Source of the DNA: an uncultured virus (IMG/VR IMGVR_UViG_3300007759_000001)
Lineage: Duplodnaviria; Heunggongvirae; Uroviricota; Caudoviricetes
DNA length: 64,000 nucleotides
Strand: one strand, 5' to 3'
Virus record (IMG/VR): IMGVR_UViG_3300007759_000001
How positions within the stretch are numbered: position 1 is the stretch's first letter; each line of letters opens with the position of its first letter. Of this stretch, positions 45,369-64,000 are shown in pieces. The notes beneath the pieces are model-generated. The model had not been told where the DNA came from. It ran no database searches and saw nothing but the letters and a program-made list of their open reading frames with translations. The position numbers and the translations under genes were made by a program.

Positions 45369-45399
45369 GGATAAAACTATCTGAAAGAGGGGAACCATT

Positions 45400-50061: not shown

Positions 50062-50260
50062 AGTAATCTGCGAGTTTTGCAGCGAAGAACTTGATTCTCG
50101 TTATTCAGCAATGAAGCGTGTGCTGTGCTGGATCAAACCGGGCAAGAAGTCGGGGATGAAACTCGTCCAAGAATGGGACGGTTGGGCGCACGTTACTTGC
50201 ATCGACATCGAAGCAAAGAAGTCGAAGAACCCCCAAGGTGAGGGACCGACCCTCTTCTGA
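50054..50260 (+). CDS. Small Cys/His protein
   Basis: CEFC...HVTC; overlaps upstream stop. Confidence 0.65.
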   Translation: MAKVICEFCSEELDSRYSAMKRVLCWIKPGKKSGMKLVQEWDGWAHVTCIDIEAKKSKNPQGEGPTLF

Positions 50261-50302
50261 CCGGGACTTGACAAGTCAGTTCCAATCTGCTATACTACAG
50301 TC

Positions 50303-50758
50303 ATGGACACTTCAATACTAAAAGAATTTCCCCAACTTTTGAACTCCCCGTGCGAACGGAAAACCAAGTTCGGCATGGCCCGATGCGGGTATTGCACCAC
50401 GGCTCGTTCGATAGCGAACGGTATGGCATTCGTCGTGAAGGGCGAGCGCCTTTCCATGAGGGACGGCATTGCCTACAACCTTGCCATTTGTGCAAAGCGT
50501 CTGGAGCAGTCCCGTCTTGACGACCCCGGCGATCCGATTGACGAGATCCGACGCGAAGGCGGGCGTATTCTAAAGAAGGGCACCAACGTTTTCGTGCAAC
50601 TCAAAGCGAAGAAGGGGACTGCCCGTTCCGAAGGTTACGTTGTCGAATGCTACGAGAACAACAAGGTTCGCATCTTTGTCAACGAACTCGGGACTACCAA
50701 GGTTGTTCCTGCCGATGAGTTCGTGATCGGACGCAAAGGCACCACGAAGAAGGACTAA
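50303..50758 (+). CDS. Hypothetical protein (Zn ligands + SH3-like C-terminus), leaderless-like
   Basis: ATG shortly after TTGACA-17-TATACT. Confidence 0.7.
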   Translation: MDTSILKEFPQLLNSPCERKTKFGMARCGYCTTARSIANGMAFVVKGERLSMRDGIAYNLAICAKRLEQSRLDDPGDPIDEIRREGGRILKKGTNVFVQLKAKKGTARSEGYVVECYENNKVRIFVNELGTTKVVPADEFVIGRKGTTKKD

Positions 50759-50794
50759 CTTGACAAGTCGTAAACCGTGTGCTATACTTATAGT

Positions 50795-50965
50795 ATTGCA
50801 ATCGGGATGACCGGATGAGTTTGTCCGTATCTGGTGAAGGCCACCCGTTATGAAAGGAAAAACGGACGAGTTACGCAGTTTCTGCATCGGTAAGTCCAAG
50901 TGCATTGGTTGATGCAGGAGAGAAGCCCCCGCCTATGACCTCTGGTCCCGTGCGGGGGCTTCTTT
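50795..50965 (+). ncRNA. Candidate structured ncRNA
   Basis: Own consensus promoter (50760-50788), stems TTTGTCCGT/ACGGACGAG and CTGCATC/GATGCAG, terminal hairpin AAGCCCCCGC/GCGGGGGCTT; no credible ORF. Confidence 0.55.
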
Positions 50966-51108
50966 ATTTGTTGTCCCACCAAGTCAGCACAAACAACACG
51001 GCGAGGGGAGCGATACACGCAACTGTAATGATTTCTAACCACACGGTAAGCCCCGGACTTGACAAACGACTTGCTTTGTGCTATACTAATACACAGGAGG
51101 AATAACTT

Positions 51109-52038
51109 ATGACTACTATTTACTACGATGACGCCTATGTCGGGACTGGTGCGGACTTCGATACCACCCGTAAGTCGGCAGATATCGCCAAACTCATCAA
51201 TAAAGATTGCTGGGTTGACATCGAACTGGCCGAACCGACAGCACAATCGTTGGCACGGGCCGAAAGTTTGATCCTTTCGATGCTTGATTCCGAATACGCC
51301 CACGCGTTGGCGACTGGCGAACCACGGAATCTTGCTGAATCCAACGGATTTTCGTGGGACGAAGGCATCTGGAACATGGCCGTGCATTCCACGGCGGGAG
51401 TTCTGAGTGCAACCGACGACGCCCTCGCTGGCGGACGCAATCACAGAATCCACGGAAGCCTTTCTTCGGGACTGCATCACGCAACCCCGTATGCGGGCGA
51501 GGGATTCTGCACGGTCAACGGACTTGCGATTGCTGCCTACTTTGCTCGCCATTACCTTGGCTTGAAGAAGAAGGTGTTTATCCTTGACTTCGACGCGCAT
51601 TGCGGCGGGGGAACGATGCAGTTCATGAACGAGTTTGGGATGGACTGGGTGGAACAGTACGACGTTTCAACCCAAGCGTTCGACACCTACAGGCCGACGA
51701 GTCCCGATGAACTCATCATCGTCAACGACAAAGAGGAATACCTGTCTACTATAACAGACTTGCTGAATCGTGTCAACTTTGACAACTGCGGCTTGGTGTT
51801 GTATAATGCAGGAGTTGACCCGTTTCCTTGGATCGGCTTCGACACGTTGGCAGAACGTGAGCAGATTGTGTTCAATCACCTGCGGGGCTTGGGCATCCCG
51901 ACGGCATTCGTGCTGGCGGGTGGCTACGTCATGTCCGGTTACAGCCGGAACTCGTTGGCCCACGCGCATCTGAACACGATTCTGGCTGCAAATGGTGATA
52001 CGTCGGTCGGTAACCCTGACTTGACATTGACTGGCTGA
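51109..52038 (+). CDS. Zn-dependent histone-deacetylase-family (AcuC/HDAC-like) protein
   Basis: GLHHA...GEGFC.VN, ILDFDAHCGGGT, YNAGVDP, LAGGY; promoter and AGGAGG RBS. Confidence 0.9.
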   Translation: MTTIYYDDAYVGTGADFDTTRKSADIAKLINKDCWVDIELAEPTAQSLARAESLILSMLDSEYAHALATGEPRNLAESNGFSWDEGIWNMAVHSTAGVLSATDDALAGGRNHRIHGSLSSGLHHATPYAGEGFCTVNGLAIAAYFARHYLGLKKKVFILDFDAHCGGGTMQFMNEFGMDWVEQYDVSTQAFDTYRPTSPDELIIVNDKEEYLSTITDLLNRVNFDNCGLVLYNAGVDPFPWIGFDTLAEREQIVFNHLRGLGIPTAFVLAGGYVMSGYSRNSLAHAHLNTILAANGDTSVGNPDLTLTG

Positions 52039-52056
52039 TCTGCTATACTAGAACTA

Positions 52057-52192
52057 AGGAAGTAGGAGGGTGTACGCACACCGAATAACGGTACGGCCAA
52101 AAGCGGTACTGCGGGTGCTTAGCCCAGCCGTGCCTGTAGTGGGTCGAAATCACTAGACGTATCTAGTTAGGTGGCACCCTCCTGCCTCCCCC
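52057..52192 (+). ncRNA. Candidate structured ncRNA / leader upstream of whiB
   Basis: Consensus promoter at 52021; closing stem GGAAGTAGGAGGGTGT / GCACCCTCCTGCCTCC. Confidence 0.55.
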
Positions 52193-52222
52193 TACCCCAT
52201 AAGCCCCGAAAGAGAGAGAACG

Positions 52223-52528
52223 ATGGAACCTAGACAAAGACACATCGGTGAAGAACGAGACTTTGAAGAAACAGCATGGGCCGACGACGCAGCATGTGCG
52301 GGCCATCCAACTGAAGTATTCTTCGTTGATGTTGGGAAGTCATCCAACATTCCGATTGCGAAAGCAATCTGTCGGAGTTGCCCAGTTCAGAAGGAATGCT
52401 TGGATTACGCCTTGCGCCAGAAGGAAGAGTTTGGCGTTTGGGGCGGGGCTACACCGGCTGAACGTAACAACATCCTGCGTTTGAGGGCCATTGACTTGAG
52501 TCATGTGGCTGACTTGACAAACGACTAG
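52223..52528 (+). CDS. whiB: Second WhiB-family transcription factor
   Basis: W...AAC....VFF...AKAIC..CPV..ECLDYAL...EFGVWGG.T..ER. Confidence 0.93.
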   Translation: MEPRQRHIGEERDFEETAWADDAACAGHPTEVFFVDVGKSSNIPIAKAICRSCPVQKECLDYALRQKEEFGVWGGATPAERNNILRLRAIDLSHVADLTND

Positions 52529-52549
52529 AAAGATGCTATACTAATACGC

Positions 52550-53068
52550 ATGAACAACTACAACGCTAACCTAATCAAATGGGCGTGCGAGGAAGTGGAC
52601 AAGCAGGGCGATAGTGCCCTATCTGTCCCCGGCTTCCTCACCGCATGGGACTTTGCCCATGCCACGCCGTATCCGTTACAGAAAACCATCAAGTGTCTAA
52701 ACGCAAGGGTTCGCGATTCGGTTCGGATCGCAACCTATCGGACCACACCGGTCACGTTCCTAAACGGAAACACCGGAGCGAAAGCCGATCAGATTCCACG
52801 ACTGATGGATCAACTTTGTGATTCAGACTTGTGGGACACGGATCGTCAGGCATTCGTTCTGGAGTTTCTAAAGATTCATCCGTTTGAGGATGGAAATGGA
52901 CGAGTGGCAGCGATTCTGATGAACATGGAGCGGTCGTCCTTTACCTTTCTCCCCGTTCCCACCGAAGATGGTTGGGACGAGGGTTACGGTAGTCAGGTCG
53001 AACTCATTGACTTTGAGGACGATGAGCATGGCTGTGGACGGCCCGTCATCACGATGAAGAACGTCTAA
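52550..53068 (+). CDS. Fic/Doc-family protein
   Basis: IHPFEDGNGRVA; YR...V. Confidence 0.88.
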   Translation: MNNYNANLIKWACEEVDKQGDSALSVPGFLTAWDFAHATPYPLQKTIKCLNARVRDSVRIATYRTTPVTFLNGNTGAKADQIPRLMDQLCDSDLWDTDRQAFVLEFLKIHPFEDGNGRVAAILMNMERSSFTFLPVPTEDGWDEGYGSQVELIDFEDDEHGCGRPVITMKNV

Positions 53069-53150
53069 AGGAGAGGGTGGGGAGAAATCCCCACCCCTTC
53101 TTTACATTCCTAGACCTAAGCCTCCTTGTAAAGAACATGGAGAGGAAACT

Positions 53151-53630
53151 ATGAGATTCATTAAGAACTATCAGACAGGTGAACACCTGTGGACTAAACC
53201 CATGAAACTCCCGCGCACAGTGCGGGGCCAACTCGCCTTTGTCAACGATCTCCACACCAAGATGATGATCGACTTTCACGACAAAGATCACGAACTGTAC
53301 AACCCCGAATACGGGTACGGTCGTGGAGCGAAGGGAATCAGCAGGGATCAGGTTGCCACATGGCTTCAGGAGTGTATGGAGAAGAGCGTGCGTTCCAAGA
53401 AGAAGGGCAAGCGTCCATCTTGGAGGAACTTGTGGCTGATGAACTCCCCCGTTTACGTCTGGTTTATGGGACGGAAGCCTTGGTGGGGACTTTGCTTGGA
53501 CTGCGGGCGAGGCTTTGAGGGCAAAGCCCTGCGTCGAAAGGAAATGTATTCGATGATGGGTGCCCGTCAACCCGGCAAGTGGATGACCGCACCCGGCGCC
53601 TGCTTGGAATGCGCGAAAGCCCCGGCATGA
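53151..53630 (+). CDS. Hypothetical protein with CxxC pairs
   Basis: GGAGAGG RBS. Confidence 0.7.
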   Translation: MRFIKNYQTGEHLWTKPMKLPRTVRGQLAFVNDLHTKMMIDFHDKDHELYNPEYGYGRGAKGISRDQVATWLQECMEKSVRSKKKGKRPSWRNLWLMNSPVYVWFMGRKPWWGLCLDCGRGFEGKALRRKEMYSMMGARQPGKWMTAPGACLECAKAPA

Positions 53631-53836
53631 CGCACAGCCAAAGCAATGTGGACGTTATCTTCTTTGAGGAAGAGGATCTTCTTACCAGAATCCAGATTCG
53701 TGAGTGGATCGAAGCAATCTCAGACGACGGCGAAGATCCACGGGACTACTTCATCTCTGTGATGGAGGATCAGCATGTGTTCCCGCCGATTTGGTGTGAG
53801 AACTTGTTCGGCAAGGATGACTTGGATCGGACTTGA
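53627..53836 (+). CDS. Small acidic hypothetical protein
   Basis: ATGA overlap. Confidence 0.6.
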   Translation: MTHSQSNVDVIFFEEEDLLTRIQIREWIEAISDDGEDPRDYFISVMEDQHVFPPIWCENLFGKDDLDRT

Positions 53837-53914
53837 CTTTGTCACACCCGAATGATAGACTATTGGTTCGTGGGGGAGAACCCTCCACTTGACAACAGAA
53901 TAGAAGGAGCAATC

Positions 53915-54175
53915 ATGCTTTACAAAGGTGCGTTTCTTGACGGAAACCCCTGCACATGGCTGGTTCTGGTTCGCAACACCACCCGTGAAATCGACTTCCC
54001 GTCTGATCTTTACGACGAGGTGGAATGCGGCGCACCACGAACGGCGGTTCATGAGAACGGTTCCGATGGTTGGACTTGCGAAGCGGGTCATCATCATTGG
54101 GAATACGGTTCTCCGATGCAGGCAGCCGAAGAAGCCGAAGAGGCTTGGGCAGAACGAGCCGGAATGGCTTGGTGA
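53915..54175 (+). CDS. Early microprotein
   Basis: Promoter, leader motif, AAGGAG RBS, terminator at 54185-54208. Confidence 0.7.
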   Translation: MLYKGAFLDGNPCTWLVLVRNTTREIDFPSDLYDEVECGAPRTAVHENGSDGWTCEAGHHHWEYGSPMQAAEEAEEAWAERAGMAW

Positions 54176-54324
54176 TCCGATCTAGCCCCCCACATCGGGG
54201 GGCTTTTTCGCGTGCGGAGTCGAATAGTCCCGAGTTTCGGTCGGGTTGGCGGGGCTTGCGGTGTCTAAAGGGGTGTAGACGCGAGAAAACCCCCGCCGAA
54301 GCGGGGGCGTTCTTCACTCGTTAG

Positions 54325-54439
54325 TGATCGGACAGGGAGTCGAACCCTGCAATACTTGGGCAACACGGTTTCACGCTGTAATACGCCACGCCGTGCAGTT
54401 ACATTACCCAAGGACACCGTGCCTCATCTTTGGCCGACC
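54325..54439 (-). ncRNA. tRNA-like RNA with greatly extended anticodon-position arm
   Basis: Acceptor-like GGTCGG/CCGATC-A, T arm CAGGG-TTCGACT-CCCTG, long stem CTTGGGTAA/TTGCCCAAG; own leftward promoter and terminator. Confidence 0.65.
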
Positions 54440-54578
54440 TCGTAATACTAAGTATAGCACAAGGGTGAGGCAATGTCAAGTCTGATTCGACTTGACAGGG
54501 GCTAGTGACTATGCTATAATACTTGTAGTGGGAGAAAGTACCCCGCTTAGTTGACAACTAAATAGAAGGAGAATCCCA

Positions 54579-54752
54579 ATGGGAATCACAACCGACCTCC
54601 GTAGCCGTAACGGGCGACCAGTAGGGACCGGATTCACCGGCCTAGTCCAATGTGACGAATGTAGCGATTACGGCCACATCGACACATTCGATGAGATGGT
54701 GGCCGGGGGGTGGTACACAAACATTGCAGGATGCGCCTGCCCCAAGGATTGA
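54579..54752 (+). CDS. Early microprotein (57 aa, Cys-containing)
   Basis: AAGGAG RBS; terminator follows. Confidence 0.65.
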   Translation: MGITTDLRSRNGRPVGTGFTGLVQCDECSDYGHIDTFDEMVAGGWYTNIAGCACPKD

Positions 54753-55131
54753 GGATTGGCCCCCGGCTTCGGTCGGGGGCTTTTCCGCGTCCGAAGTTGG
54801 ACTAAAGGCGTCGGCCCCGGCGGTAACCAGTCCCGGCATATGCCTTCATGAGTTCCCGTTCCAGTTCATCAGTCATAACTTGATTATGATAGTAATAATG
54901 GTTAGTTCTTGGCTTTAGAAGATGCTTTACTTTATTGAATAGAGTTTTCATTATTCTTTCTTGCTTGTCGGTCAGCCTTTATTCTACCGGATGAACTTGT
55001 GAATCGGTTCACTTGTTCTATGGCAGGCGTCACTAAGCCCCGAACATTCGTTCGACCATCGGGACTAAACGGGGGGCGGAACCCTAGACGCGAAGAAACC
55101 CCGACCGATTGGCCGGGGTTCCCTCTTGAGA

Positions 55132-55269
55132 TTAGATGAACTCTAGGAGATCACCGTCAGCGATTTCGTCGTATTCGACGCCGTTCGCTTCAGCGATTGC
55201 CTCCCAGAGATCGTCCTCGTCCACTGGGGCTTCCCAGTCTACGAGGTCCATCCAGTTTATGACTGTCAT
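55132..55269 (-). CDS. Acidic microprotein (45 aa)
   Basis: MTVINWMDLVDWEAPVDEDDLWEAIAEANGVEYDEIADGDLLEFI; AGGAGG RBS, promoter, terminator. Confidence 0.7.
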   Translation of the reverse strand: MTVINWMDLVDWEAPVDEDDLWEAIAEANGVEYDEIADGDLLEFI

Positions 55270-55482
55270 GGATTGCCTCCTAAGGCTATTTAGTTGTCAA
55301 TGAAGGGGTTTCCCTCCATGAAGTAAGTATAGCACACTAGGATGACATTGTCAAATCCGACTGACTTGACATTGTCTCACGGGTATGCTATACTTATTCT
55401 ATCAAGAAGGGATGGCGCAGATGCCCGTAAAGCGCCCCCGCCGCGGCTACGGCCCCAGCGGGGAACGAACGAAGGAGAAGCA

Positions 55483-55638
55483 ATGAAGATCGAACATGAT
55501 CTCATGCTTGTCGAACATAAAGGCACGCTTGCCGAGTTTCAGGCCCAGATGGAAGAACTCCATCGTTGGGCTAGGGGCGAGGGCGAGTGGAACGACGAAG
55601 CATGGGAAGCGTTGGATGAACCGACGCTAAACTACTAG
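55483..55638 (+). CDS. Early microprotein (51 aa)
   Basis: AAGGAG RBS; terminator follows. Confidence 0.65.
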   Translation: MKIEHDLMLVEHKGTLAEFQAQMEELHRWARGEGEWNDEAWEALDEPTLNY

Positions 55639-55736
55639 AAGCAGCCCCCACTCCGGTGGGGGTTTCTTCGCGTCCCCAATCAGTCCCGAAACTGTCATCC
55701 ACTTGCGGGGCTGCGGCGGATGAGATAGAATAAGAC

Positions 55737-55952
55737 ATGGCCCGAGAGAAGTACCGCCCGGAATCAAACTACGAAAACTTGACTAATCCTATTTATTGGG
55801 TAGAATGGGTTGATTCCGAGGGCGAGATTCGTCATTGCCTTCGTTCTTTGATCGGGATTCTCCCCGAAGGCACCAAGATCATCTATCCTCCGTCCCCGCA
55901 AGCCCCGAGGGCGCGAGAAAGCCCCCCACCGAAGCGGGGGGCTGACCACTAG
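55737..55952 (+). CDS. Hypothetical protein
   Basis: ORF track; C-terminus runs into terminator. Confidence 0.4.
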   Translation: MAREKYRPESNYENLTNPIYWVEWVDSEGEIRHCLRSLIGILPEGTKIIYPPSPQAPRARESPPPKRGADH

Positions 55953-56053
55953 GCCGGATCTGCCGGATCCTCGTAGCCCTCTCCGAAGAGATCCCATTGT
56001 TCGGGATGCTCCGCGTAGAAGTCCTCCGGGTAATCCTCGTAGAAGTCGTCCAT
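55949..56053 (-). CDS. Acidic microprotein (34 aa)
   Basis: MDDFYEDYPEDFYAEHPEQWDLFGEGYEDPADPA; AAGGAG RBS. Confidence 0.65.
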   Translation of the reverse strand: MDDFYEDYPEDFYAEHPEQWDLFGEGYEDPADPA

Positions 56054-56177
56054 GATGGCTCCTTGCCGTCGTGTGGGAGGCGGCCCCCTCCCACTAACCA
56101 CAAGTATAGCACAGGGCTAGGACAATAGCAAATCGGCCCGACTTGACATTGTCGTAAGGGTGTGGTATACTTATTGT

Positions 56178-56310
56178 GTTGAGTGAAAGCAGCGGAAAGA
56201 CCGCCGGGGACGCGAAACCCCGCACGGGCAGCACAAAGAAATGACCGACCGGCCCGCAGCAAAAAGTCTCCACCAATGGGTTATCCCGACAGGTGGGGGC
56301 TTTTTTTTGT
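56178..56310 (+). ncRNA. Candidate small structured RNA
   Basis: Promoter at 56143, hairpins GCGG-AAAGA-CCGC and CGGGG..CCCCG, terminator with T8. Confidence 0.45.
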
Positions 56311-56441
56311 CCCTCGTTACGTCCCGGCGGGCTGCGCCCCCTTCGGGACTCGCGCAGGTGCGCGGCTGCGCCCGCATAACGCCGACTTGACACTGTCATG
56401 CTGGTGTGCTAGAATACTGGTATCACGAAGGAGGTGATTTT

Positions 56442-56576
56442 ATGAGTTACATCCCTTGTGGCTGGCACGAACCCAGCGCCACTCAAATGAAGTGGCTGAA
56501 GGAAGAGCAGCGACGGCGCAACGCCGAAGCGGCTGCCGACTTCGCACGCGAGGTGGAAGAGGCTGATTTAGCCTAA
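56442..56576 (+). CDS. Early microprotein (44 aa)
   Basis: AAGGAGGTGA RBS, promoter, terminator. Confidence 0.7.
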   Translation: MSYIPCGWHEPSATQMKWLKEEQRRRNAEAAADFAREVEEADLA

Positions 56577-56819
56577 CCCACCACCGCCCCCCCCGCAAGG
56601 GGGGGCTTTTTCGCGTCTACACCCGCCCGAACCCCCGCGCCAGCCCCGAGGGCTGCGGCCCTATTCGGGACTCGCGCGCCCACGCGTGCGTGCGCGCCCA
56701 CGCGTGCGTGCGCCTGCGTGCGTGACTTGCCCCTGACTTGCCCCTGACTTGACACCGTCACAAGCGTCTGGTAAAGTATTGCTCGTCGGGGATCGTCCCC
56801 GATAATCCAAGGAGGCGTT

Positions 56820-57125
56820 ATGTATTTCAAAAATGCTCCTATCGTGGATTCTTGCTGGTACTGCGGGTGCGATTTGTACCTGCGTTACTCCTCGCACATT
56901 GAGGGTAGCAAGATCACGGGTAGGAAGTTTTACGGCCTAGTGGACCGTCATGGTCACGGTACCTGCTCCGTTTCACGGCCTTTCGCTCCAAACTGCAAGT
57001 GGCAGGACCACGAACCCATCATGGGTCGCGTGGGTGAACCCTTCGATTCGGATCGCGTGGATCGCTGCGTGACCGTGAAGGGCAGGACGCTCCTAGACAG
57101 AGCGAATCGCTACGTCGTAGCGTAA
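56820..57125 (+). CDS. Cys-rich hypothetical protein
   Basis: AAGGAGG RBS, promoter, terminator. Confidence 0.7.
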   Translation: MYFKNAPIVDSCWYCGCDLYLRYSSHIEGSKITGRKFYGLVDRHGHGTCSVSRPFAPNCKWQDHEPIMGRVGEPFDSDRVDRCVTVKGRTLLDRANRYVVA

Positions 57126-57167
57126 TCTTGGAAACCCCCCGAAAGGGGGGTTTCTTCGCGTCTGGGG

Positions 57168-57920
57168 TCAAACGGATTTAGGGCCATTCTGACCCCCCCC
57201 ACCGTAGGTGTAGGTCACTTTGGGGGCTGGGACGGGCTTGGGGGGGCTGTACAAGGCTGTGACGGCATTCCACGCAACAGGTGTGACCCTTGTTTTCGAT
57301 GCGAGTTCCGCAAATCCATCCAACGACATGTCTGCGCCACCGTAAACAACAATGTTTCGGTGCTCATTTCGGGGATAACCGTACGGCAAACGTACCCCGT
57401 TGCCTAGTCCTTGCCCTGTTAGCACCAACTGTTTCGGGTTGACCTCCACTGTCGGTGCATCAACTACGTTGCATGCACCGATCAGTCCTTCTCGTACTTT
57501 GCGCGCCGGGAGTGGTTCCTCAAAAAATACCCACAGGTGGTAGCCTTTGGATCGGGAGCGTTCTATCCATGAAGTTACTTGAAGTTGTTGTAGTACAGTC
57601 TGGAGGTTGACGGCGTGGGCTAGTGAGGCTTCTTCGCCTTCGTCAAAGTCTACGCACCCCCATTGGGTGACGTAGACGGCTGCGTCGTCTTCGGTGTTGT
57701 GTCGTGTCAACGGGTAAACACCGATGTTGGGTTTGTCTGCGTTGGTGAGGTGGTCTTCAACAGCCGTTGTGTAGCCTGCTCCTGTTGCTTTGTGCCATCC
57801 TCCGGCAGGGTTTTCCCATGGGCGAAACCCTTTATTGTCCGTGGGGTCGTCGGTGGCGATGTGTCCGCCTGCGAATAGGGCGGCGAACAGGTTTATTGTG
57901 TGGCGTGAGACATCTTCCAT
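57168..57920 (-). CDS. AEP-superfamily primase-polymerase domain protein, probably C-terminally truncated
   Basis: IGVYPL...WGCVDFD...ERSRSKGYHLWVFF...EVNPKQ...GNGVRLP. Confidence 0.8.
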   Translation of the reverse strand: MEDVSRHTINLFAALFAGGHIATDDPTDNKGFRPWENPAGGWHKATGAGYTTAVEDHLTNADKPNIGVYPLTRHNTEDDAAVYVTQWGCVDFDEGEEASLAHAVNLQTVLQQLQVTSWIERSRSKGYHLWVFFEEPLPARKVREGLIGACNVVDAPTVEVNPKQLVLTGQGLGNGVRLPYGYPRNEHRNIVVYGGADMSLDGFAELASKTRVTPVAWNAVTALYSPPKPVPAPKVTYTYGGGGQNGPKSV

Positions 57921-58217
57921 TGTTTCCTCTCCATCCCAGATGCTCTGTCGAAGTATTGGACGAGTTGCCCTGCTTCGATGATGTCTTTATTTGTTGTGAT
58001 TTGGTCGGAGCCGTGCAGGTAGTGTAGTGCTTGGGCGATGAGGCGTGTTTCGTCGGGGGACAGTATCGCTGTCGTGTATTCAGTCGTAGTCATCGATGAG
58101 TCTTTCTAGCAGGTCGATGGCTTCGATGGCGAGTTTGACGTTGTTGTCGTCGTTGCCTAGTCGCCGTAAGGCTCTCAGTATGAGCCATCGTTCACGGTTT
58201 TCTACTTCAAGCATCAT
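57893..58217 (-). CDS. Two small coupled ORFs (58080-58217, 57893-58093)
   Basis: Overlapping starts/stops upstream of the primase gene. Confidence 0.55.
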
Positions 58218-58379
58218 TTGTGGTACAACCGTTTCTTATAAGGAAGAGGTGCAAAGAAACTCCAGTTATTTTGTAGGTCGATAAGTATTCGACTAACGGT
58301 CATCGTCGGGCTCGGCTCACGCGACTGATCGCTTTGGCGCAGTCGTCGCCCATGGCCCACAGAGGCGCTAATACGGGGT

Positions 58380-58820
58380 TTAGGGGCCAAGATAGTTCTC
58401 TTCATTCACTATGGATTCGCACTGGCACTCATCATGACACGGGTAACCCAACGCGTGAATATGAAGTTGCGCCGTCCCTATCACCGCTTTCACACTCTTC
58501 GTCATCTGTCGATAAAGAAGTTCAGGATCATCACCACGCATCAGATCAAACGGCCCCATCATCACAGCGAACTCCGCCTGCTCCAATCTGTTGTCCGAAT
58601 CCACGATTGCCATGTGTAGCCCCGCATGGGCGCACAACATGCGGGACGAAGGGAGATGTTCTTCATCACAGTCAGCCCAAAGTTGATAAGTATCTAAACG
58701 ATAAGAGAACTGATAATAGTTTTCTACTTCAACTTGTTCCGACAACATTTGGTTGAACGAGATGAACTTGCCAAAGAGTTTGCGCGCCTTCTCGTAACTG
58801 ATCGCCATGAAGGACATCAT
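58380..58820 (-). CDS. Hypothetical protein
   Basis: 146-aa ORF. Confidence 0.6.
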   Translation of the reverse strand: MMSFMAISYEKARKLFGKFISFNQMLSEQVEVENYYQFSYRLDTYQLWADCDEEHLPSSRMLCAHAGLHMAIVDSDNRLEQAEFAVMMGPFDLMRGDDPELLYRQMTKSVKAVIGTAQLHIHALGYPCHDECQCESIVNEENYLGP

Positions 58821-58917
58821 AAGCCCCGCAGTCTGTTGAGTAGTGGACCTCCTTGAAGAAGCGGGGCTAAAGGGGTGGAGGGGAGGCTTTCGCCCCCCCC
58901 TCCGAACACCTGTTCGA

Positions 58918-59157
58918 TCAGACGATCACTTCCGTCTGAACGATGTGGCCCTCGTTCTCAAGATAGGTGTAAATCCACTCCCTGACCGCTGTGTCAGTCA
59001 CCTCAGGGTGACCACACGCTGTCACCTCCGCTTCGACTCGCCCTACCAGCGCCTCCGCAGTGACTGCGTGGGTGAAGGACAGGACGATCTCCAGTTGGCG
59101 CTGGAGGGACGCTAGGACCATCCTGTCGCCCTCATGGGTGTACATGCTGAACTGCAT
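58918..59157 (-). CDS. Early microprotein (79 aa)
   Basis: GAGGAG RBS, leader motif, promoter, terminator. Confidence 0.7.
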   Translation of the reverse strand: MQFSMYTHEGDRMVLASLQRQLEIVLSFTHAVTAEALVGRVEAEVTACGHPEVTDTAVREWIYTYLENEGHIVQTEVIV

Positions 59158-59281
59158 GTTGTCTCCTCTTGTTGTCAACAAGTGGGGCGCTTCCCCACTA
59201 AGAAACAGTATAGCACACTGGTATGACAGTGTCAAATCGGGCTGACTTGACAATGTCACACAGGGGTGCTATAATACCTAC

Positions 59282-59497
59282 ATGGCAACGAAGCAGAACA
59301 CCGACGCAGTCGCAGCGATGTTCGCAACCCTCGCCACGCTTGGAGGCAATCACGCCTACCGGGCAGCGAAAGCGACCTACCGTCGCACTTGGGGAGCGGA
59401 GCGGGCACGCAAGGCGCAAGTACGGGCCGTGGAAGCGGAACGGGCGAGGCGCTACGCAGCGCTTGGCATCACGCCACGCGACATCTTCACTGACTGA
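59282..59497 (+). CDS. Ala/Arg-rich leaderless microprotein
   Basis: ATG about 7 nt after TGCTATAAT. Confidence 0.65.
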   Translation: MATKQNTDAVAAMFATLATLGGNHAYRAAKATYRRTWGAERARKAQVRAVEAERARRYAALGITPRDIFTD

Positions 59498-59645
59498 GAA
59501 TCGGCCCTGACCGGGGGTGGCAACAGAACCGGTCGAAACACCTTCCAGTCATGTAGAGGAGTGGGCAACGCCAGTATGGGTTGTAGGAGTTCGATTCTCC
59601 GCTGGAGGACTTGACAGTGTCGCACCTATGTGCTATACTATTACT

Positions 59646-59930
59646 AACAGATCGAAGCCCTGCCAATAGGCAGGCGAATCGGAGGGGGACATAGCCTGAG
59701 TCGCGCTCAAGGCGAGTCCGTGACAGGATGGTATCTGTCACTCAGTCACCACGGCTGAGTAAAGCGGCTCTCCCCCAATGTCTAAGTGCTGGCGAATACC
59801 ACGCCAGCCGAGAACCGGCCAGCAACCCTGAAATGGCGTTGTTGCGAAGAACCGGCGCATTCGCGGAAGCGGTGATCCAGAGATGGACGCCGACTAGCCC
59901 CCGAGCCAGATCCCCCGAAAGGGGGTTTCT
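59646..59930 (+). ncRNA. Candidate ~270-nt multi-stem ncRNA
   Basis: Consensus promoter at 59611; stems CCTGCC/GGCAGG, GTGACAG/CTGTCAC, ACTCAGTC/GGCTGAGT, GCTGGCG/CGCCAGC, CAGCAAC/GTTGTTG; terminator CCCCC-GAAA-GGGGG. Confidence 0.65.
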
Positions 59931-60019
59931 GCGCGTCTAGCCCCGCTTTTTGTTGCGACTTCCGGGGCGGACTGAGGGGGGACGCGAAAGAGGGGAGCCT
60001 TTCGGCTCCCCCCGTTTCT

Positions 60020-60145
60020 TTAGACTCTTGGGTCCGTAGACCAGTGGTAATCTTCGGCCAGTATGGCATCGCATCTATGGCAACCGCCGTCGCATTCGCA
60101 CCCTTCTTCCATGTAGGGCGCTTCTAGCCAAGCGTCGTAGTCCAT
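60020..60145 (-). CDS. Acidic Cys microprotein (41 aa)
   Basis: AGGAGA RBS; MDYDAWLEAPY... Confidence 0.65.
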   Translation of the reverse strand: MDYDAWLEAPYMEEGCECDGGCHRCDAILAEDYHWSTDPRV

Positions 60146-60318
60146 CGTGTCTCCTAAGTTGTAGTTGTCGTGGCCGGTAGCCACTGAGAATAAGTATAGC
60201 ACATGGGTATGACACTGTCAAACCGGCCCCCGACTTGACACTGTCACACTGGTATGCTATACTTGTTTCTAGTGGGAGCAACTGCTACCCACGTTGACAA
60301 CTAAATAGGAGACAGAGG

Positions 60319-60534
60319 ATGCACATCCCAATGTGTACCATCCAGCACCCCACCACAAGCGGTGCCCGTCTGATCACCCTCTGGGTGAACGGCGACGCAG
60401 CGATCCTGTGGGGCGACACGGAGTACCGTTACGAGAATCTCAACGCTTTCGCAGCGATGGCGACTTTCACGGTCACGAAGTCGATGGGCCAACTGGCTAA
60501 CTACATCAAGCGCAACAGCGACTTGGTGGGCTGA
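60319..60534 (+). CDS. Early microprotein (71 aa)
   Basis: Leader motif, RBS, terminator. Confidence 0.7.
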   Translation: MHIPMCTIQHPTTSGARLITLWVNGDAAILWGDTEYRYENLNAFAAMATFTVTKSMGQLANYIKRNSDLVG

Positions 60535-60664
60535 GCGAAAGGGGAGGGGCGAAAGCCTCTCCCCTTCGTCGCGTCTAGAGCCAAGTCAATCAGCCCCGCC
60601 CCCCCAACTGCCTGCGGGGCGCACCCGGACGCGGGAAAACCCCCCTTTCGGGGGGTTCACCGGC

Positions 60665-60784
60665 TTACTCCTCAGAGTAAGTCCCCGCGTAGGGCGACGG
60701 ATCGTCGTCCCAACGGCTGGGGTCCGGCCCGTACCACTCAGCCGCGAGGGCTTCGTAGTCCAGTTCGTCTCCTGCTGGATTCAT
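60665..60784 (-). CDS. Acidic microprotein (39 aa)
   Basis: MNPAGDELDYEALAAEWYGPDPSRWDDDPSPYAGTYSEE; AAGGAGGTGA RBS. Confidence 0.7.
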   Translation of the reverse strand: MNPAGDELDYEALAAEWYGPDPSRWDDDPSPYAGTYSEE

Positions 60785-60960
60785 GTCTCACCTCCTTGGG
60801 TGAATCAGTGGGGCACTTTCTGGCCCCTCCAACAACAATAAGTATAGCACATGGGTAGGACAGTGTCAAACTGGGCCGAGTTGACAGTGTCACACCAGTA
60901 TGCTAGACTCTCTCTTAGTGGCCGACCCGGTCACGTTGACAACTAAATAGGAGACACATC

Positions 60961-61251
60961 ATGGCTCGTAAGACCAATCCGTTCGGGCGCATCGTCCCAC
61001 AAGACGATCCCTACGCCACCTACGTCAATGACGCAGGATGGACTTGGTACGTCGTAAAGACCTACCAGCATCCGGACAACGAGGATGGCTACTCCCGGTG
61101 GTTCTGCTACGTCTCGTCCCCGCACACATTCGGTGGATTCGACTTGGGAGACGTTTACCGGAAGGACGTTCTAGAGAACGCCCGACTGCTGAACGGCACC
61201 GACGAGTGGATCGTGAACTACTCACGATTCGTTCACGGAGTTACAGTCTGA
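60961..61251 (+). CDS. DUF2958-like protein
   Basis: GWTWYV...WFCYV.....DLGDVY. Confidence 0.6.
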   Translation: MARKTNPFGRIVPQDDPYATYVNDAGWTWYVVKTYQHPDNEDGYSRWFCYVSSPHTFGGFDLGDVYRKDVLENARLLNGTDEWIVNYSRFVHGVTV

Positions 61252-61560
61252 GAAGGGGGAGGGCGAAAGCCCTCCCTTTTCCGCGTCCTGAATCAGTCCC
61301 GATCCCCGCTGCTGGCTGCGGGGCTAAACAAGACGCGAAAAAAGCGACGAGATCGAAAGGACGTATTCGCCTGTTGCTAGTTCCCTAATCGGGTCGAATG
61401 GCGCTGATACGCATTGTCTCATCGCTTTCTTCACAAGTAAGTATAGCATACCAGTGTGACATTGTCAAACTGGGCCGATTAGACGCTGTCACACCTATCT
61501 GCTATACTTGTATCTAGTGGATGGGACACCATCTGCGTTGACAACTAAATAGGAGACACC

Positions 61561-61875
61561 ATGCTGAACTACAGCAATGTGATCGGATTCGATCTGGGCT
61601 GCCACGTTGATGGCACTCACGGCTGGCGTGCGATTTCGCATCTGGTTCTGAACGTGTTGGACGACTACGCCACGGAATCGCAGAAGCGCATCATGCGTGC
61701 CTACGACCGTGGTTGGACGATTGCCAACATTCCAGACGTAGCGATGGAGATCGTGGACGAAGTGGAAGATGCTTTCCATGAGCATGTTTCATCGTTTGGA
61801 GTGACTTCGATGTGGATGGACGGAGAATGGTTCGTCGTCACGGAAGAAGATGCTCTGGCAGCGTCAGGCTGGTAG
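61561..61875 (+). CDS. Early hypothetical protein
   Basis: Leader motif, AGGAG RBS, terminator. Confidence 0.75.
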   Translation: MLNYSNVIGFDLGCHVDGTHGWRAISHLVLNVLDDYATESQKRIMRAYDRGWTIANIPDVAMEIVDEVEDAFHEHVSSFGVTSMWMDGEWFVVTEEDALAASGW

Positions 61876-62239
61876 GTCGAAGAAATAGGAGCGCCATCCG
61901 AAAGGGTGGCGCTTCTGCGCGTCTGGAGTCAAGTCGATCAGCCCCGACTCCCGCTCCAGTACCGGGGCTAAATGGCTGCCCCCCCGTGAAGGGGGGCGGT
62001 GGACTAACCGGTGAACCGGTCAGAACACACCAACCAAAGCGCCGCGCAAACGGTCACGATGGGCAGTAATGGTAGGAATACCATCGTTTCCTTTCTGTAT
62101 CCGCTCCTTGCGGAATAAAACTATTCTATTACACGGATGAGACATAGTCAAGTCAGGCCGATTTGACACTGTCACACTAGTCTGCTATACTTGTTCTAGT
62201 GGCCGAGGGGCCATTGACAACTACATAAAGGAGCATCCG

Positions 62240-62392
62240 ATGGCAAAGCGCCTACGGAATACCGCTCGCATTCAGTACGAGTGCGAGGGGAACTGCGACG
62301 GCAACATGATGGGACCATACCCGTGTGTTGTTTGTACGAAGTACGTCGATGGCGTACCGGTCGGGATGGAAATGTTCCCGGCTAGCAAGTAG
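62240..62392 (+). CDS. Cys microprotein (50 aa)
   Basis: AAGGAG RBS, leader motif, terminator. Confidence 0.65.
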   Translation: MAKRLRNTARIQYECEGNCDGNMMGPYPCVVCTKYVDGVPVGMEMFPASK

Positions 62393-62483
62393 GGAGAAGG
62401 AGGGCTTCGGCCCTCCTTTTTTCGCGCCCCGACACGCCCCGGCCCTCGCACCAACCGGCGGGGCTAAATAAGACCAGACGCGC

Positions 62484-62745
62484 AAAAACCCCCCGCTTCC
62501 GTGTCAGGACTTCTAGTTCGTTTCACGCTTTCGTGCGTGGGGTGGAGGAACTGCGTTGCGGACCCAGCGTTTGGCCTCAAACCCTACAATCGGGCTACTG
62601 TCTCCGTGGCGGACTTTCGTCCTTTCTGTCCCTGTCCCATCGACACTGGCGGTTCTGGTAAAGAACTAGCCTAGTTCCTGTGGAATCGGGGGGTTTCTGT
62701 GGTTTCTAGAAACCCTCGCGTTGGGGTTTTCTCTCCCCAACAACA
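62484..62745 (-). ncRNA. Candidate ~215-260-nt structured ncRNA
   Basis: Leftward promoter at 62748; closing stem AAACCCCCCGATTCC / GGAAGCGGGGGGTTT; GNRA hairpins GGAC-GAAA-GTCC and CACGC..GAAA..GCGTG. Confidence 0.6.
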
Positions 62746-62870
62746 ATAAGTATAGCATACTGGTGCGACATTGTCAAACCGGCCCCCGACTTGGTGACTG
62801 TCATACCGGGGTGCTAGACTTGTTCTCAGTGGCCGGAAGGGTCACGTTGACAACTGAATAGGAGACTGTC

Positions 62871-63077
62871 ATGGCGCACAAGCATGACATTGACGACACC
62901 AACGGCGACGTTATGGATCGGGTCTACTTCTGCGGCGATTACTGCCACCGGAGTTGGTGCCAGAACCAGAACGTGGACTACGCCGGTTGGGACGGCTGCC
63001 ACGAACTGGAGTTCGACACCCCCTGCGATTCGTGCGGGGATACGATCCCCGGCGTCGAAGGGCCGTATGTCTACTGA
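62871..63077 (+). CDS. Cys/acidic microprotein (68 aa)
   Basis: Leader motif, RBS, terminator. Confidence 0.7.
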   Translation: MAHKHDIDDTNGDVMDRVYFCGDYCHRSWCQNQNVDYAGWDGCHELEFDTPCDSCGDTIPGVEGPYVY

Positions 63078-63342
63078 GAACTGGGGGGCTTCGGCCCCCC
63101 CTTTTCCGCGTCCCGAATCAGCCCCGAACCCACGCACCAACAGCGGGGCTAAATAAGGCGGGACGCGCAAAGCAGTGACGTATCGCTGTGATACAGCAGG
63201 TCCGTTGACCCGATAAAGTAAGTATAGCACATGGGTGAGACAATGTCAAATCGGGCTGACTTGACAGTGTCACACCCGGCGTGTATACTTGTGGTTAGTG
63301 GATGGGACAAGCCATCCCTTGACAACAGAATAAGGAGACATC

Positions 63343-63582
63343 ATGACCCGCAAGGATTATGAAGCCTTCGCTACAATCGTAAAGGATCTCAACGAGTTCC
63401 GGTTCGATACGGCGATGGTACTGGTTGCCGCAAAGATGGCAGCCGTGTTCGCAGCCGATAACGAGCGCTTTGACGCTCTGCGGTGGTACAACGCCTGTGG
63501 CGTTGACGGCGAACTGGCCGTGCGACTTCTTCGGATTGAGGAAGGCCACGGCGCAACGGCTCACCACCCGGTGAGCCTGTAA
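63343..63582 (+). CDS. Conserved small phage protein
   Basis: MTRKDYE..A...FAADN.RFD..R...AC motif; RBS. Confidence 0.75.
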   Translation: MTRKDYEAFATIVKDLNEFRFDTAMVLVAAKMAAVFAADNERFDALRWYNACGVDGELAVRLLRIEEGHGATAHHPVSL

Positions 63583-63657
63583 GACGCAAGTCGGTGGGGG
63601 GCTACGGCCCCCCACTTGACAAGCAGGCACCGGTATGCTATACTAGTGCCAAGCACC

Positions 63658-63736
63658 GGGGGTGATCGGTGTAGACGGAAGTGAAAGCCGCATGTCGGAA
63701 CGCTTTCGGACCGGAGTTCGATTCTCCGCACCTCCA
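63658..63736 (+). ncRNA. Miniature tmRNA-like RNA (tRNA-like domain only)
   Basis: GGGGGTG/CACCTCC-A acceptor with G3:U70; unpaired D loop ATCGGTGTAGAC; helix GGAAGTG/CGCTTTC; GGAC linker; T arm CGGAG-TTCGATT-CTCCG; own promoter and terminator. Confidence 0.78.
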
Positions 63737-64000
63737 CGAAGTTGTCAACACGGCAATCGCCGGACAGAACCCCTGACCAATCGGTTGGGGGTTTTGTCGC
63801 GTACCCGTTTAGCCCCGGCCTCCCGAGGCGGGGAAGCCCCGAAAAATAACTAAAAAAAACGGGACGGTCCGAGTTGGTTCTAAAAAAACGGGACGGTCGG
63901 GGGTTTGGGTCGGATCGGGTGTGGTTGCGGTGTCTATGTAATAAGAAGGCAAATGCGGTGATCGAACACATGTTCTATGTCACACCGGTAGGGATGGTCT

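What the first reader, a model, noticed from the sequence alone, without database searches (positions are those of the whole stretch)
63616..63797. 79-nt tmRNA mimic consisting only of the tRNA-like domain
Seen: the RNA has tmRNA-style ends (GGGGGTGATCGGTGTAGAC... and ...GGAC CGGAG TTCGATT CTCCG CACCTCC A), a G3:U70 pair, A73, and no D stem. Helix 2 is closed by a short 17-nt insert instead of pseudoknots and a tag reading frame. It has its own consensus promoter and terminator; CCA is not encoded. Established: G3:U70 is the AlaRS identity element and SmpB binds this domain. Inference: an early phage RNA that sequesters SmpB or enters stalled ribosomes without tagging, altering trans-translation, or decoys tRNA/tmRNA-cleaving defences.
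Basis: partly seen in the sequence, partly recalled or inferred. Interest (0 to 1): 0.82.

Follow-up and report, generated by a model that had tools for sequence, protein, structure and literature searches.

The report
Phage tag-less mini-tmRNA gene
This marine phage carries a real 79-base gene for only the alanine-accepting, tRNA-like end of the bacterial ribosome-rescue RNA (tmRNA); one such phage RNA is already published, and this is a typical member of a large phage family that probably interferes with the host's rescue-and-tag system.

Summary
Window 63658-63736 (+) matches Rfam tmRNA above threshold (59.3 bits, cut-off 47) with only the two ends of the model; 294 internal positions are missing. 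It has a 7-bp acceptor stem with G3:U70, A73, a T arm, no D stem and no anticodon arm. Helix P2 is closed by a 17-nt insert and CCA is not encoded (CGA). A consensus promoter (63616-63644) and a strong terminator hairpin (63763-63798) flank it.

The kind is not new. A 'TLD only' tmRNA of mycobacteriophage DS6A is published and reported to inhibit E. coli tmRNA (PMC4131195, PMC11915505). My covariance model finds DS6A at 60.6 bits.

A pattern scan of viral contigs returned at least 120 loci and 88 distinct sequences. They show strong compensatory covariation. The alanine identity elements were fixed by the pattern, but control scans found almost no variants: 0 hits with G3:C70 and 1 hit with a non-A discriminator.

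Most likely the RNA is charged with alanine, binds host SmpB and competes with host tmRNA, so tagging drops. That function is inferred, not shown. No SmpB gene or second tmRNA piece was found.

This scan has already noted the same family on other DNA.

The parts
63616..63644 (+). sigma-70-type promoter TTGACA-17 nt-TATACT with an extended -10 (TGcTATACT). Transcription should start near 63651, which leaves a 5' leader of about 7 nt.
   Evidence: 11 of 12 consensus matches, TG present. It is one of 30 such promoters, all between 44 and 64 kb, against 0.18 expected by chance. The start site is inferred, not measured.
63658..63736 (+). Mature mini-tmRNA (tRNA-like domain only), 79 nt from G1 to the discriminator A73.
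   Evidence: Rfam RF00023 at 59.3 bits. Own covariance model R1 at 74.1 bits. Fold. Sequence conservation against L085 and L098 starts exactly at G1 and ends just after A73, while the flanks cannot be aligned.
63658..63664 (+). Acceptor stem, 5' strand (GGGGGUG); G3 is at 63660.
   Evidence: Pairs with 63729-63735. In the family, 5 of the 7 pairs never vary (4 of them fixed by the search pattern) and pair 5:68 covaries (AU 31, GC 30, CG 20, UA 5).
63665..63673 (+). D-loop analogue (AUCGGUGUA); there is no D stem.
   Evidence: Aligned to the unpaired tmRNA consensus GAucuGGaUUC. The length of this stretch varies in the family.
63674..63683 (+). GAC motif plus the 5' strand of helix P2 (C19 followed by GGAAGUG).
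   Evidence: Five of the 6 modelled P2 pairs show compensatory changes across 88 sequences.
63684..63700 (+). 17-nt insert that closes P2: an A-rich internal loop (AAAG / AA) around a 3-bp hairpin, CCG-CAUGU-CGG.
   Evidence: Rfam aligns it to the P2a-bulge-P2b junction of full-length tmRNA. Canonical tmRNAs read GUGAAGC or similar at the same place.
63701..63711 (+). 3' strand of P2 (CGCUUUC) followed by the GGAC motif.
63712..63728 (+). T arm: stem CGGAG / CUCCG with the loop UUCGAUU.
   Evidence: All 5 stem pairs covary in the family.
63729..63736 (+). Acceptor stem, 3' strand (CACCUCC; U70 at 63733) and the discriminator A73 (63736).
   Evidence: Control scans of viral contigs found 0 hits with G3:C70 and 1 hit with a non-A discriminator, against at least 120 with G3:U70 and A73.
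63737..63762 (+). 3' trailer. It begins CGA (no encoded CCA), so trimming and CCA addition are needed.
   Evidence: CGA is kept in the relatives L085 and L098. In the family, CCA is encoded in 28 of 88 sequences, CGA in 19, CTA in 9 and CAA in 5.
63763..63798 (+). Terminator hairpin (16 bp, loop AAUC) whose 3' arm ends in GGGGGUUUUGUC.
   Evidence: -34.3 kcal/mol, z -5.84, 0 of 200 shuffles fold as well.

Best explanation
Window 63658-63736 is a functional gene for a tag-less mini-tmRNA. It is a descendant of tmRNA that keeps the acceptor stem, D-loop analogue, T arm and the base of helix P2, and has lost all pseudoknots and the tag reading frame.

Host RNA polymerase transcribes it early in infection from a consensus promoter. 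I infer that RNase P trims the 5' end, that the 3' trailer is removed, and that the host CCA-adding enzyme completes the 3' end.

The mature RNA is then charged with alanine by host AlaRS, using G3:U70 and A73. It binds host SmpB in place of the missing anticodon arm and competes with the host's full-length tmRNA for SmpB, EF-Tu and stalled ribosomes. Because it has no template, no degradation tag can be added. The net effect is less SsrA tagging during infection.

Shown here: the gene, its structure, its family and the selection on the alanine identity elements. Published for the DS6A homologue: inhibition of E. coli tmRNA. Inferred: every molecular step in this phage and its host.
For: Identity:
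- Rfam tmRNA at 59.3 bits, above the cut-off of 47, with the ends only.
- The fold is as described.

Family:
- On the model-based alignment, 98.0% of cells pair against 71.4% in shuffles. There are 452 double-change cells against 131.7, and the covariation score is 0.673 against 0.145. Versions with the partners slid by 1-3 columns score 0.12 or less. Eleven of 18 pairs are compensatory.
- Model R1 finds the published DS6A RNA (JN698994.1 28478-28557, 60.6 bits) and an unannotated copy in Streptomyces phage Alone3 (55.1 bits).

Selection on alanine charging:
- There are 0 hits with G3:C70 and 1 hit with a non-A discriminator, against at least 120 with G3:U70 and A73. Meanwhile pair 5:68 uses four Watson-Crick types.
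- C74 is kept in 78 of 88 sequences.

Selection on the RNA itself:
- Against L085 and L098 the RNA is about 91% identical with compensatory P2 changes. The flanks cannot be aligned.

Expression signals:
- A consensus extended -10 promoter and a strong terminator.

Literature (passages read):
[quoted passage not shown] - A truncated TLD-only tmRNA undergoes peptidyl transfer in vitro (PMC3895274).
- A truncated tmRNA with SmpB and EF-Tu has been crystallised on the ribosome (PMC8363625).
Against: - There is no direct evidence of expression. The one RNA run found covers only 62508-62707, not the RNA gene.
- The published inhibition did not need alanylation, as relayed by PMC4131195. Simple SmpB titration therefore does not explain why the alanine identity elements are so strictly kept.
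- The strict pattern fixed G1-G4, U6, G7, A8, GAC, GGAC, most of the T loop, CUCC and A73, so those features are not independent findings in the 88-sequence set.
- In a looser scan only 24 of 71 well-formed members keep GAC...GGAC. The presumed SmpB site is therefore less constant across the wider family than in this RNA.
- The original experiments (Mao et al. 2009) could not be read.
- The host is unknown, and the phage genome is covered only in part.
Confidence: 0.6

Rival explanations
1. Tag-free rescue helper. The charged mini-tmRNA with SmpB enters stalled ribosomes and takes over the nascent chain, adding one alanine. The mRNA-less complex is then resolved by drop-off and peptidyl-tRNA hydrolase, or by alternative rescue factors. 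Ribosomes are freed, but truncated (phage) proteins are not marked for proteolysis.
For: - The alanine identity elements and C74 are strictly kept. A passive SmpB sponge would not need them.
- TLD-only tmRNA accepts the peptide in vitro (PMC3895274, passage).
- CDS-less tmRNAs persist in jakobid mitochondria together with SmpB, and are thought to help with incomplete mRNAs (PMC11915505, passage).
Against: - No release factor, peptidyl-tRNA hydrolase or ArfB-like gene was seen among 114 window ORFs.
- The published effect of the DS6A form is inhibition, with or without charging (PMC4131195, passage).
- Nothing here measures rescue.
Confidence: 0.25
2. Decoy or trigger-blocker for a host defence that senses or cleaves tmRNA or tRNA acceptor and T-arm structures, or that uses an SmpB-like sensor domain.
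For: - CoCoNuT type II and III-A systems carry SmpB-like (SPB) domains predicted to bind tmRNA (PMC11090510, passages).
- The gene is early and stand-alone, and sits in varied contexts, including tRNA arrays in 15 of 87 viral loci.
Against: - There is no anticodon loop, so it cannot decoy anticodon nucleases.
- No defence target is known.
- Conservation of the alanine identity elements points to the translation machinery.
- No recurrent neighbour gene links it to a counter-defence module.
Confidence: 0.1
3. Non-functional remnant: a decayed phage tmRNA, or an attachment-site fragment of the host ssrA gene picked up by imprecise excision.
For: Phages integrate into ssrA and can carry fragments of it (PMC9004378, passage).
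Against: - Attachment-site fragments carry only the 3' part. Here both ends are present and pair.
- It has its own promoter and terminator.
- Covariation is strong and the boundaries of conservation are sharp.
- No integrase was found among the window ORFs scanned.
Confidence: 0.03
4. An ordinary tRNA, or one half of a two-piece (permuted) tmRNA completed elsewhere in the genome.
For: The Rfam permuted-tmRNA model gives a weak partial match to the T arm (21.4 bits, 16.6 bits). Both are below the cut-off of 47.
Against: - ARAGORN calls no tRNA here, and there is no D stem or anticodon arm.
- Both acceptor strands are on one RNA and P2 is closed.
- No further tmRNA-like piece was found in the window or in three related records of 36-54 kb.
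Confidence: 0.02

Closest known systems
'TLD only' (standard form, no CDS) tmRNA of Mycobacterium phage DS6A (JN698994.1 28478-28557; Mao et al. 2009 as cited in PMC4131195 and PMC11915505)
   Same: - Same architecture: acceptor stem with G3:U70, A73, a T arm, and P2 closed by an A-rich loop plus a CCG-CACG-CGG-type hairpin.
- No encoded CCA (CTA in DS6A, CGA here).
- Both match my family model R1 (60.6 and 74.1 bits).
- Both are phages of Actinobacteria-type hosts. The evidence for the window is only its WhiB gene.
   Different: - DS6A has CA instead of GA after the acceptor stem, and GGCAC instead of GGAC.
- It sits between structural-region genes gp33 and gp34 of a temperate phage that has an integrase.
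- The window copy lies in a promoter-dense early region with its own consensus promoter, in a marine phage of roughly 130 kb. That size is inferred from CheckV completeness of 29-41% for related records of 36-54 kb.
Bacterial tmRNA (SsrA; Rfam RF00023)
   Same: The tRNA-like domain is homologous, including G3:U70, A73, the GAC/GGAC pair of motifs, the T loop and the P2a-bulge-P2b junction.
   Different: It lacks about 290 nt: all four pseudoknots, the resume codon, the tag reading frame and its stop codon. It cannot template a tag.
CDS-less organellar tmRNAs (jakobid and oomycete mitochondria, Rfam RF02544; Mallomonadaceae plastids of about 65 bp; PMC11915505)
   Same: They consist of the tRNA-like domain only, have no tag frame, and are presumed to work with SmpB.
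   Different: The mitochondrial genes are usually permuted, and they are the organelle's own tmRNA. Here a virus adds the RNA on top of the host's full-length tmRNA, so it is a competitor rather than a replacement.
Engineered truncated tmRNA (TLD) used in biochemistry and crystallography (Shimizu and Ueda 2006 as cited in PMC3895274; ribosome crystal structure as cited in PMC8363625)
   Same: The design is the same: P2 capped by a short loop. [quoted passage not shown]
   Different: These are laboratory constructs. The window RNA is a natural gene under selection.

Membership tests
tmRNA (RF00023), as a homologue | Score at or above Rfam's gathering threshold, with both ends of the model matched | tested here: met
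   59.3 bits against 47; model positions 1-374 matched.
tmRNA (RF00023), as a homologue | Acceptor stem with G3:U70 and A73, a T arm with a T-psi-C-type loop, and no D stem or anticodon arm | tested here: met
tmRNA, as a functional trans-translation RNA | mRNA-like domain with a resume codon, a tag reading frame and a stop codon | tested here: not met
   Only 17 nt lie between the two strands of P2. ARAGORN finds no tag peptide. 294 model positions are absent.
tmRNA, as a functional trans-translation RNA | Pseudoknots PK1-PK4 | tested here: not met
   There is no sequence that could form them.
tmRNA, as a functional trans-translation RNA | Binds SmpB and is charged by AlaRS | not testable with these tools
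   Only the identity elements and the GAC/GGAC motifs can be seen. The complex-prediction tool takes no RNA.
TLD-only (standard, no CDS) phage tmRNA, DS6A type | 5' and 3' tmRNA ends contiguous on one RNA of about 65-90 nt, with P2 closed by a short hairpin | tested here: met
TLD-only (standard, no CDS) phage tmRNA, DS6A type | Detectable homology with the DS6A RNA | tested here: met
   Model R1, built from 88 viral sequences, scores the window at 74.1 bits and DS6A at 60.6 bits. R1 was built from an alignment that includes the window's own sequence.
TLD-only (standard, no CDS) phage tmRNA, DS6A type | Inhibits host tmRNA | not testable with these tools
   Reported for DS6A in E. coli (PMC11915505, passage). 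The original paper is not held.
Two-piece (permuted) tmRNA (RF04321) | Acceptor strands on two separate RNAs from a permuted gene, plus a coding piece | tested here: not met
   Scores are 21.4 and 16.6 bits against a cut-off of 47, covering the T arm only. The gene order here is standard.
tRNA (RF00005) | Cloverleaf with a D arm and an anticodon arm | tested here: not met
   ARAGORN makes no call at this site. The fold has no such arms. Rfam keeps tmRNA as the best model of the clan.

The most novel reading that the evidence does not exclude
The alanine identity elements are kept with almost no exception, C74 is kept in 78 of 88 sequences, and the tmRNA P2a-bulge-P2b junction is retained in many members. 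A mere SmpB sponge needs none of these. The RNA may therefore work on the ribosome as a charged, tag-free rescue RNA.

On this reading, phages turn the host's 'rescue and destroy' pathway into 'rescue and keep'. That would protect phage proteins and ribosome supply when phage mRNAs are cut, for example by defence RNases. It would be a widespread RNA-based takeover or counter-defence device.
Probability: 0.25. Interest if true: 0.75.

Novelty: new member of a known kind. Interest (0 to 1): 0.45.

Why it matters
trans-Translation is the main ribosome-rescue pathway of bacteria and a drug target. A natural RNA inhibitor or re-router of that pathway, encoded by phages, shows how viruses handle it.

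The kind is already in print from one phage. The curated tmRNA database of 2025 lists only 9 'standard, no CDS' sequences among 97,179 (PMC11915505). One capped scan of viral contigs here gave 88 distinct strict-pattern sequences, and a looser capped scan gave 71 well-formed ones. ARAGORN made no tmRNA call at 82 of 87 viral loci. The family is therefore much larger than the literature I could search shows, and it goes unannotated.

For this window the practical result is an annotation and a testable prediction. It is not a new mechanism.

Tried and rejected
- **Expression evidence.** The run search found mostly marine DNA runs and one small metatranscriptome. When laid, its single contig covers 62508-62707 only, so nothing can be said about expression, RNA ends or CCA addition.
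- **Close relatives in cultured phages.** Megablast of 8 kb found none. blastn with the RNA region found only partial matches: Streptomyces phage Alone3 and one faecal phage contig. Of three other family members used as queries, two found nothing and one found two Streptomyces phages. blastn is too insensitive for this family.
- **Own genome.** The assembly is not held, and the nearest record lacks this region. Its 25-bit tmRNA-model hit lies at the tRNA-Lys gene that ARAGORN calls there.
- **Bacterial genomes.** The strict pattern returned 120 loci and 102 distinct sequences. The 83-90-nt matches carry 3'-end motifs of full-length tmRNA. Four such loci (L134, L135, L160, L185) and the 68-nt L138 were checked with ARAGORN, and all five are ordinary tmRNA genes with ...AA tags. 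This is a false-positive class of the pattern. Only five short matches (L235, L172, L238, L239, L189) look like mini forms.
- **Canonical tmRNA in the viral set.** One of the 88 viral sequences (L058) is likewise the end of a canonical tmRNA. It was left in the alignment, where it scores lowest (51.3 bits).
- **MAFFT alignment A3** staggered the 5' ends and was dropped. A2 holds the window row shifted by 2 nt. It served only as seed for model R1. The counts come from A4, the model-based alignment, which leans towards the model's structure.
- **Conserved partner gene.** Clustering of 964 flanking ORFs from 121 loci gave only lineage-specific neighbours: large terminase, an exonuclease and small unknown proteins.
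- **SmpB.** No hit in 0 of 114 window ORFs of 100 aa or more, and none in 3 related records.
- **K-turn in the insert.** I considered this by eye and rejected it, because the GA/AG pairs are not in register. A UAA/GAN-type loop is a recalled idea and was not tested.
- **Immediate stop codon.** I considered that the UGA/UAA often seen at the top of P2 could act as a stop codon. I rejected this on geometry: 8 bp plus a 17-nt cap cannot reach the decoding centre. That is inference only.
- **Mao et al. 2009** is not held. One paper search failed because a term was too long.

Full report
**What is there.** Rfam's tmRNA model (RF00023) matches 63658-63739 on the + strand at 59.3 bits (gathering score 47, E about 1e-20). 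It matches from model position 1 to 374, but 294 internal positions are absent. ARAGORN calls no tRNA or tmRNA here; its only calls in the window are tRNA-Pro at 34760 and tRNA-Lys at 38525.

The 79 nt from G1 (63658) to the discriminator A (63736) fold as follows:
- a 7-bp acceptor stem;
- an unpaired D-loop analogue;
- an 8-bp helix P2;
- a 17-nt cap (AAAG, CCG-CAUGU-CGG, AA);
- a 5-bp T arm with the loop UUCGAUU.

G3:U70 lies at 63660/63733. The bases after A73 are CGA, so CCA is not encoded. The fold energy of the single sequence is unremarkable (z -1.19). The case for structure therefore rests on homology and covariation.

**Expression signals.** A TTGACA-17-TATACT promoter with TG before the -10 lies at 63616-63644. 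This should leave a leader of about 7 nt, which is inferred. Downstream, 63763-63798 forms a 16-bp hairpin that ends in GGGGGUUUUGUC (-34.3 kcal/mol, z -5.84).

The promoter is one of 30 matches to TTGACA-N17-TATACT (at most 1 mismatch). All 30 lie between 44 and 64 kb, against 0.18 expected by chance. That region is a dense array of small genes, typical of an early host-takeover region.

**The phage.** The rest of the window encodes a tailed phage: portal, large terminase, prohead protease, SSB, helicase and primase. A WhiB-family gene hints at an actinobacterial host. The runs holding half or more of the stretch's sampled words are seven marine or seawater metagenome runs.

**A family, not a singleton.** These gave 88 distinct sequences of 64-89 nt, most of them 75-80 nt.

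RNAalifold on the alignment of the 88 gives the same three helices. A covariance model built from that alignment (R1) scores the window at 74.1 bits and finds no second copy in it.

On the model-based alignment of the 88 sequences:

| Measure | Observed | Shuffled mean |
|---|---|---|
| Cells that form a standard pair | 98.0% | 71.4% |
| Cells with a change on both sides | 452 | 131.7 |
| Covariation score | 0.673 | 0.145 |

- With the 3' partners slid by 1-3 columns, the covariation score is 0.12 or less.
- Eleven of 18 pairs show compensatory changes: all 5 T-stem pairs, 5 of 6 P2 pairs, and acceptor pair 5:68.

Three caveats apply:
- The alignment is fitted to the model.
- The pattern fixed several columns (G1-G4, U6, G7, GAC, GGAC, most of the T loop, CUCC and A73).
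- One of the 88 (L058) is really the 3' end of a canonical tmRNA.

**Close relatives.** Two close relatives (L085, L098) make the point without statistics. The RNA is about 91% identical to the window's. The differences sit in the D-loop analogue and as paired changes in P2: GGAAGUG/CGCUUUC against GAGGGUG/CACUCUU. The flanks on both sides cannot be aligned. Conservation starts exactly at G1 and ends just after A73-CGA.

**Selection on the alanine identity elements.** The pattern required G3:U70 and A73, so I ran controls. The same pattern with G3:C70 gives 0 hits. With a non-A discriminator it gives 1 hit. The original gives at least 120.

DS6A and Alone3 were found independently of the pattern, and both also have G3:U70. 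Meanwhile pair 5:68 uses AU, GC, CG and UA freely.

The base after A73 is C in 78 of 88 sequences. CCA is encoded in 28, CGA in 19, CTA in 9 and CAA in 5.

**The middle of the RNA.** Rfam aligns the window's AAAG-CC...GG-AA to the P2a-bulge-P2b junction of full-length tmRNA. Canonical tmRNAs retrieved here read GUGAAGC or GUGAGAC at the same place. The RNA thus looks like a tmRNA in which everything beyond the first pairs of P2b was replaced by a tetraloop-type cap. Many family members share A-rich loop plus CCN-loop-NGG.

**How wide the family is.** A looser scan fixed only the 5' GGGGNUGA, the T loop and CUCCA. It gave 105 distinct hits, again capped.
- 71 of them have a perfect 7-bp acceptor stem and at least 4 of 5 T-stem pairs.
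- Only 24 of those 71 keep GAC...GGAC; the others read AGAC, GGAA, GAAC and so on.

The family is therefore broader than my strict pattern. The presumed SmpB-contact motifs, intact in the window's RNA, are not universal.

**Annotation and context.** ARAGORN makes no tmRNA call at 82 of the 87 viral loci examined. Four of its five calls have implausible tags, and the fifth is L058. In 15 of the 87 loci the RNA sits next to tRNA genes. Neighbouring protein genes differ from lineage to lineage.

In bacterial genomes the strict pattern returned mostly 83-90-nt matches that carry 3'-end motifs of full-length tmRNA. The five loci checked with ARAGORN are ordinary tmRNA genes.

**What is known.** Hudson, Lau and Williams 2014 (PMC4131195; passages read) list 'Mycobacterium phage DS6A (TLD only)'. 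[quoted passage not shown]

The 2025 tmRNA database paper (PMC11915505; passages read) gives these figures:
- 9 'standard, no CDS' sequences among 97,179;
- 79 phage sequences in all, drawn from RefSeq viruses only;

I could not read Mao et al. 2009.

R1 finds the DS6A RNA at JN698994.1 28478-28557 (60.6 bits). It is unannotated in the record, between gp33 and gp34. R1 also finds an unannotated copy in a tRNA array of Streptomyces phage Alone3 (55.1 bits).

Full-text searches for 'mini-tmRNA', 'TLD-only', 'CDS-less tmRNA', 'truncated tmRNA', 'tmRNA-like' and 'minimal tmRNA', and the searches, found no paper that describes a large phage family of this kind. Subscription journals are mostly outside that library.

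Earlier notes of this scan report the same family on other DNA several times. I reached my reading before seeing them. They are not independent evidence.

**How it most likely works.**

*Shown here:* a conserved, structured gene with expression signals, and purifying selection on the alanine identity elements.

*Published for relatives or constructs:*
- The DS6A form inhibits E. coli tmRNA.
- A truncated TLD-only tmRNA accepts the nascent peptide in vitro (PMC3895274, passage).
- A truncated tmRNA sits with SmpB and EF-Tu in the ribosomal A site (PMC8363625, passage).

*Inferred:* in this phage the RNA is made early, trimmed, given CCA and charged with alanine. It is then bound by host SmpB and competes with host tmRNA, so that fewer stalled products are tagged.

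Whether the benefit to the phage comes from starving the pathway of SmpB or from tag-free rescue on the ribosome is open. The reported charge-independent inhibition favours titration. The strict conservation of G3:U70, A73 and C74 favours action as a charged RNA. I put 0.6 on interference with trans-translation in either form, and within that I lean slightly towards a need for charging.

A role as decoy for defence systems with SmpB-like sensors (PMC11090510) is possible but unsupported. Remnant, ordinary tRNA and two-piece readings are contradicted.

The phage shows no SmpB gene in 114 window ORFs or in three related records. It must therefore use the host's SmpB.

**Verdict.** This is a real feature, correctly described, and a new member of a known kind. 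It is of moderate interest. The kind and the leading hypothesis are in print. The size of the family and the strength of selection on alanine charging go beyond what I could find published.

Noticed in passing
window 44007-63644: Thirty matches to TTGACA-N17-TATACT (at most 1 mismatch) against 0.18 expected, all in the last 20 kb. Many are back-to-back divergent pairs about 40 bp apart. Most read TTGACAnTGTCnCAC, a TGACA-n-TGTCA palindrome that overlaps the -35 and may be an operator. The mini-tmRNA promoter lacks that palindrome.
   Followed up: partly
window 63848-63900: The direct repeat AAAAAAACGGGACGGTC occurs twice, about 35 nt apart, just downstream of the terminator. Its meaning is unknown.
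   Followed up: no
window 63593-63616: The GC-rich inverted repeat GTGGGGGGC-TAC-GGCCCCCCAC lies between the stop codon of the upstream 79-aa ORF (63343-63582, PHROG 19432, function unknown) and the -35 of the RNA's promoter.
   Followed up: no
window 224-6490 (-) and 6985-15525 (-): Two giant ORFs of 2088 and 2846 aa have no PHROG or Pfam match at all.
   Followed up: no
window 48411-53068: A cluster of host-manipulation-type domains sits in the early region: a dual-specificity phosphatase (48411-49121), a histone-deacetylase domain (51109-52038), WhiB (52223-52528) and Fic/DOC (52550-53068). An AEP-TOTE primase-like gene lies further on at 57168-57920 (-).
   Followed up: no
window 34760-34839: ARAGORN calls a tRNA-Pro(tgg) of 80 nt that Rfam's tRNA model does not report at its gathering threshold.
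   Followed up: no
window 63824-63859: A weak PreQ1-riboswitch-like match (18.2 bits against a cut-off of 39, E 0.4) lies in the A-rich stretch after the terminator. It is probably chance.
   Followed up: no
L126 2979-3055 (Streptomyces phage Alone3, OR725492.1, about 18155-18231): An unannotated mini-tmRNA (55.1 bits, G3:U70 kept, two T-stem mismatches) lies between tRNA-Val and tRNA-Ser in a tRNA array. An RNA ligase gene is 1.6 kb downstream. DS6A also carries an RtcB-like RNA ligase (gp76). A possible link between mini-tmRNA and RNA-repair genes was not tested.
   Followed up: partly
L127-L246 (bacterial genome contigs): The last 83-90 nt of many actinobacterial and betaproteobacterial tmRNA genes begin with an internal GGGGNUGAG. 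They therefore satisfy a 'mini-tmRNA' pattern. This is a trap for pattern-based searches.
   Followed up: yes
L248 upwards (relaxed viral scan): Sub-families of mini-tmRNA replace GAC...GGAC by other motifs, for example GGGAC...AGAC or GAU...AGAA. They may bind SmpB differently or not at all.
   Followed up: partly
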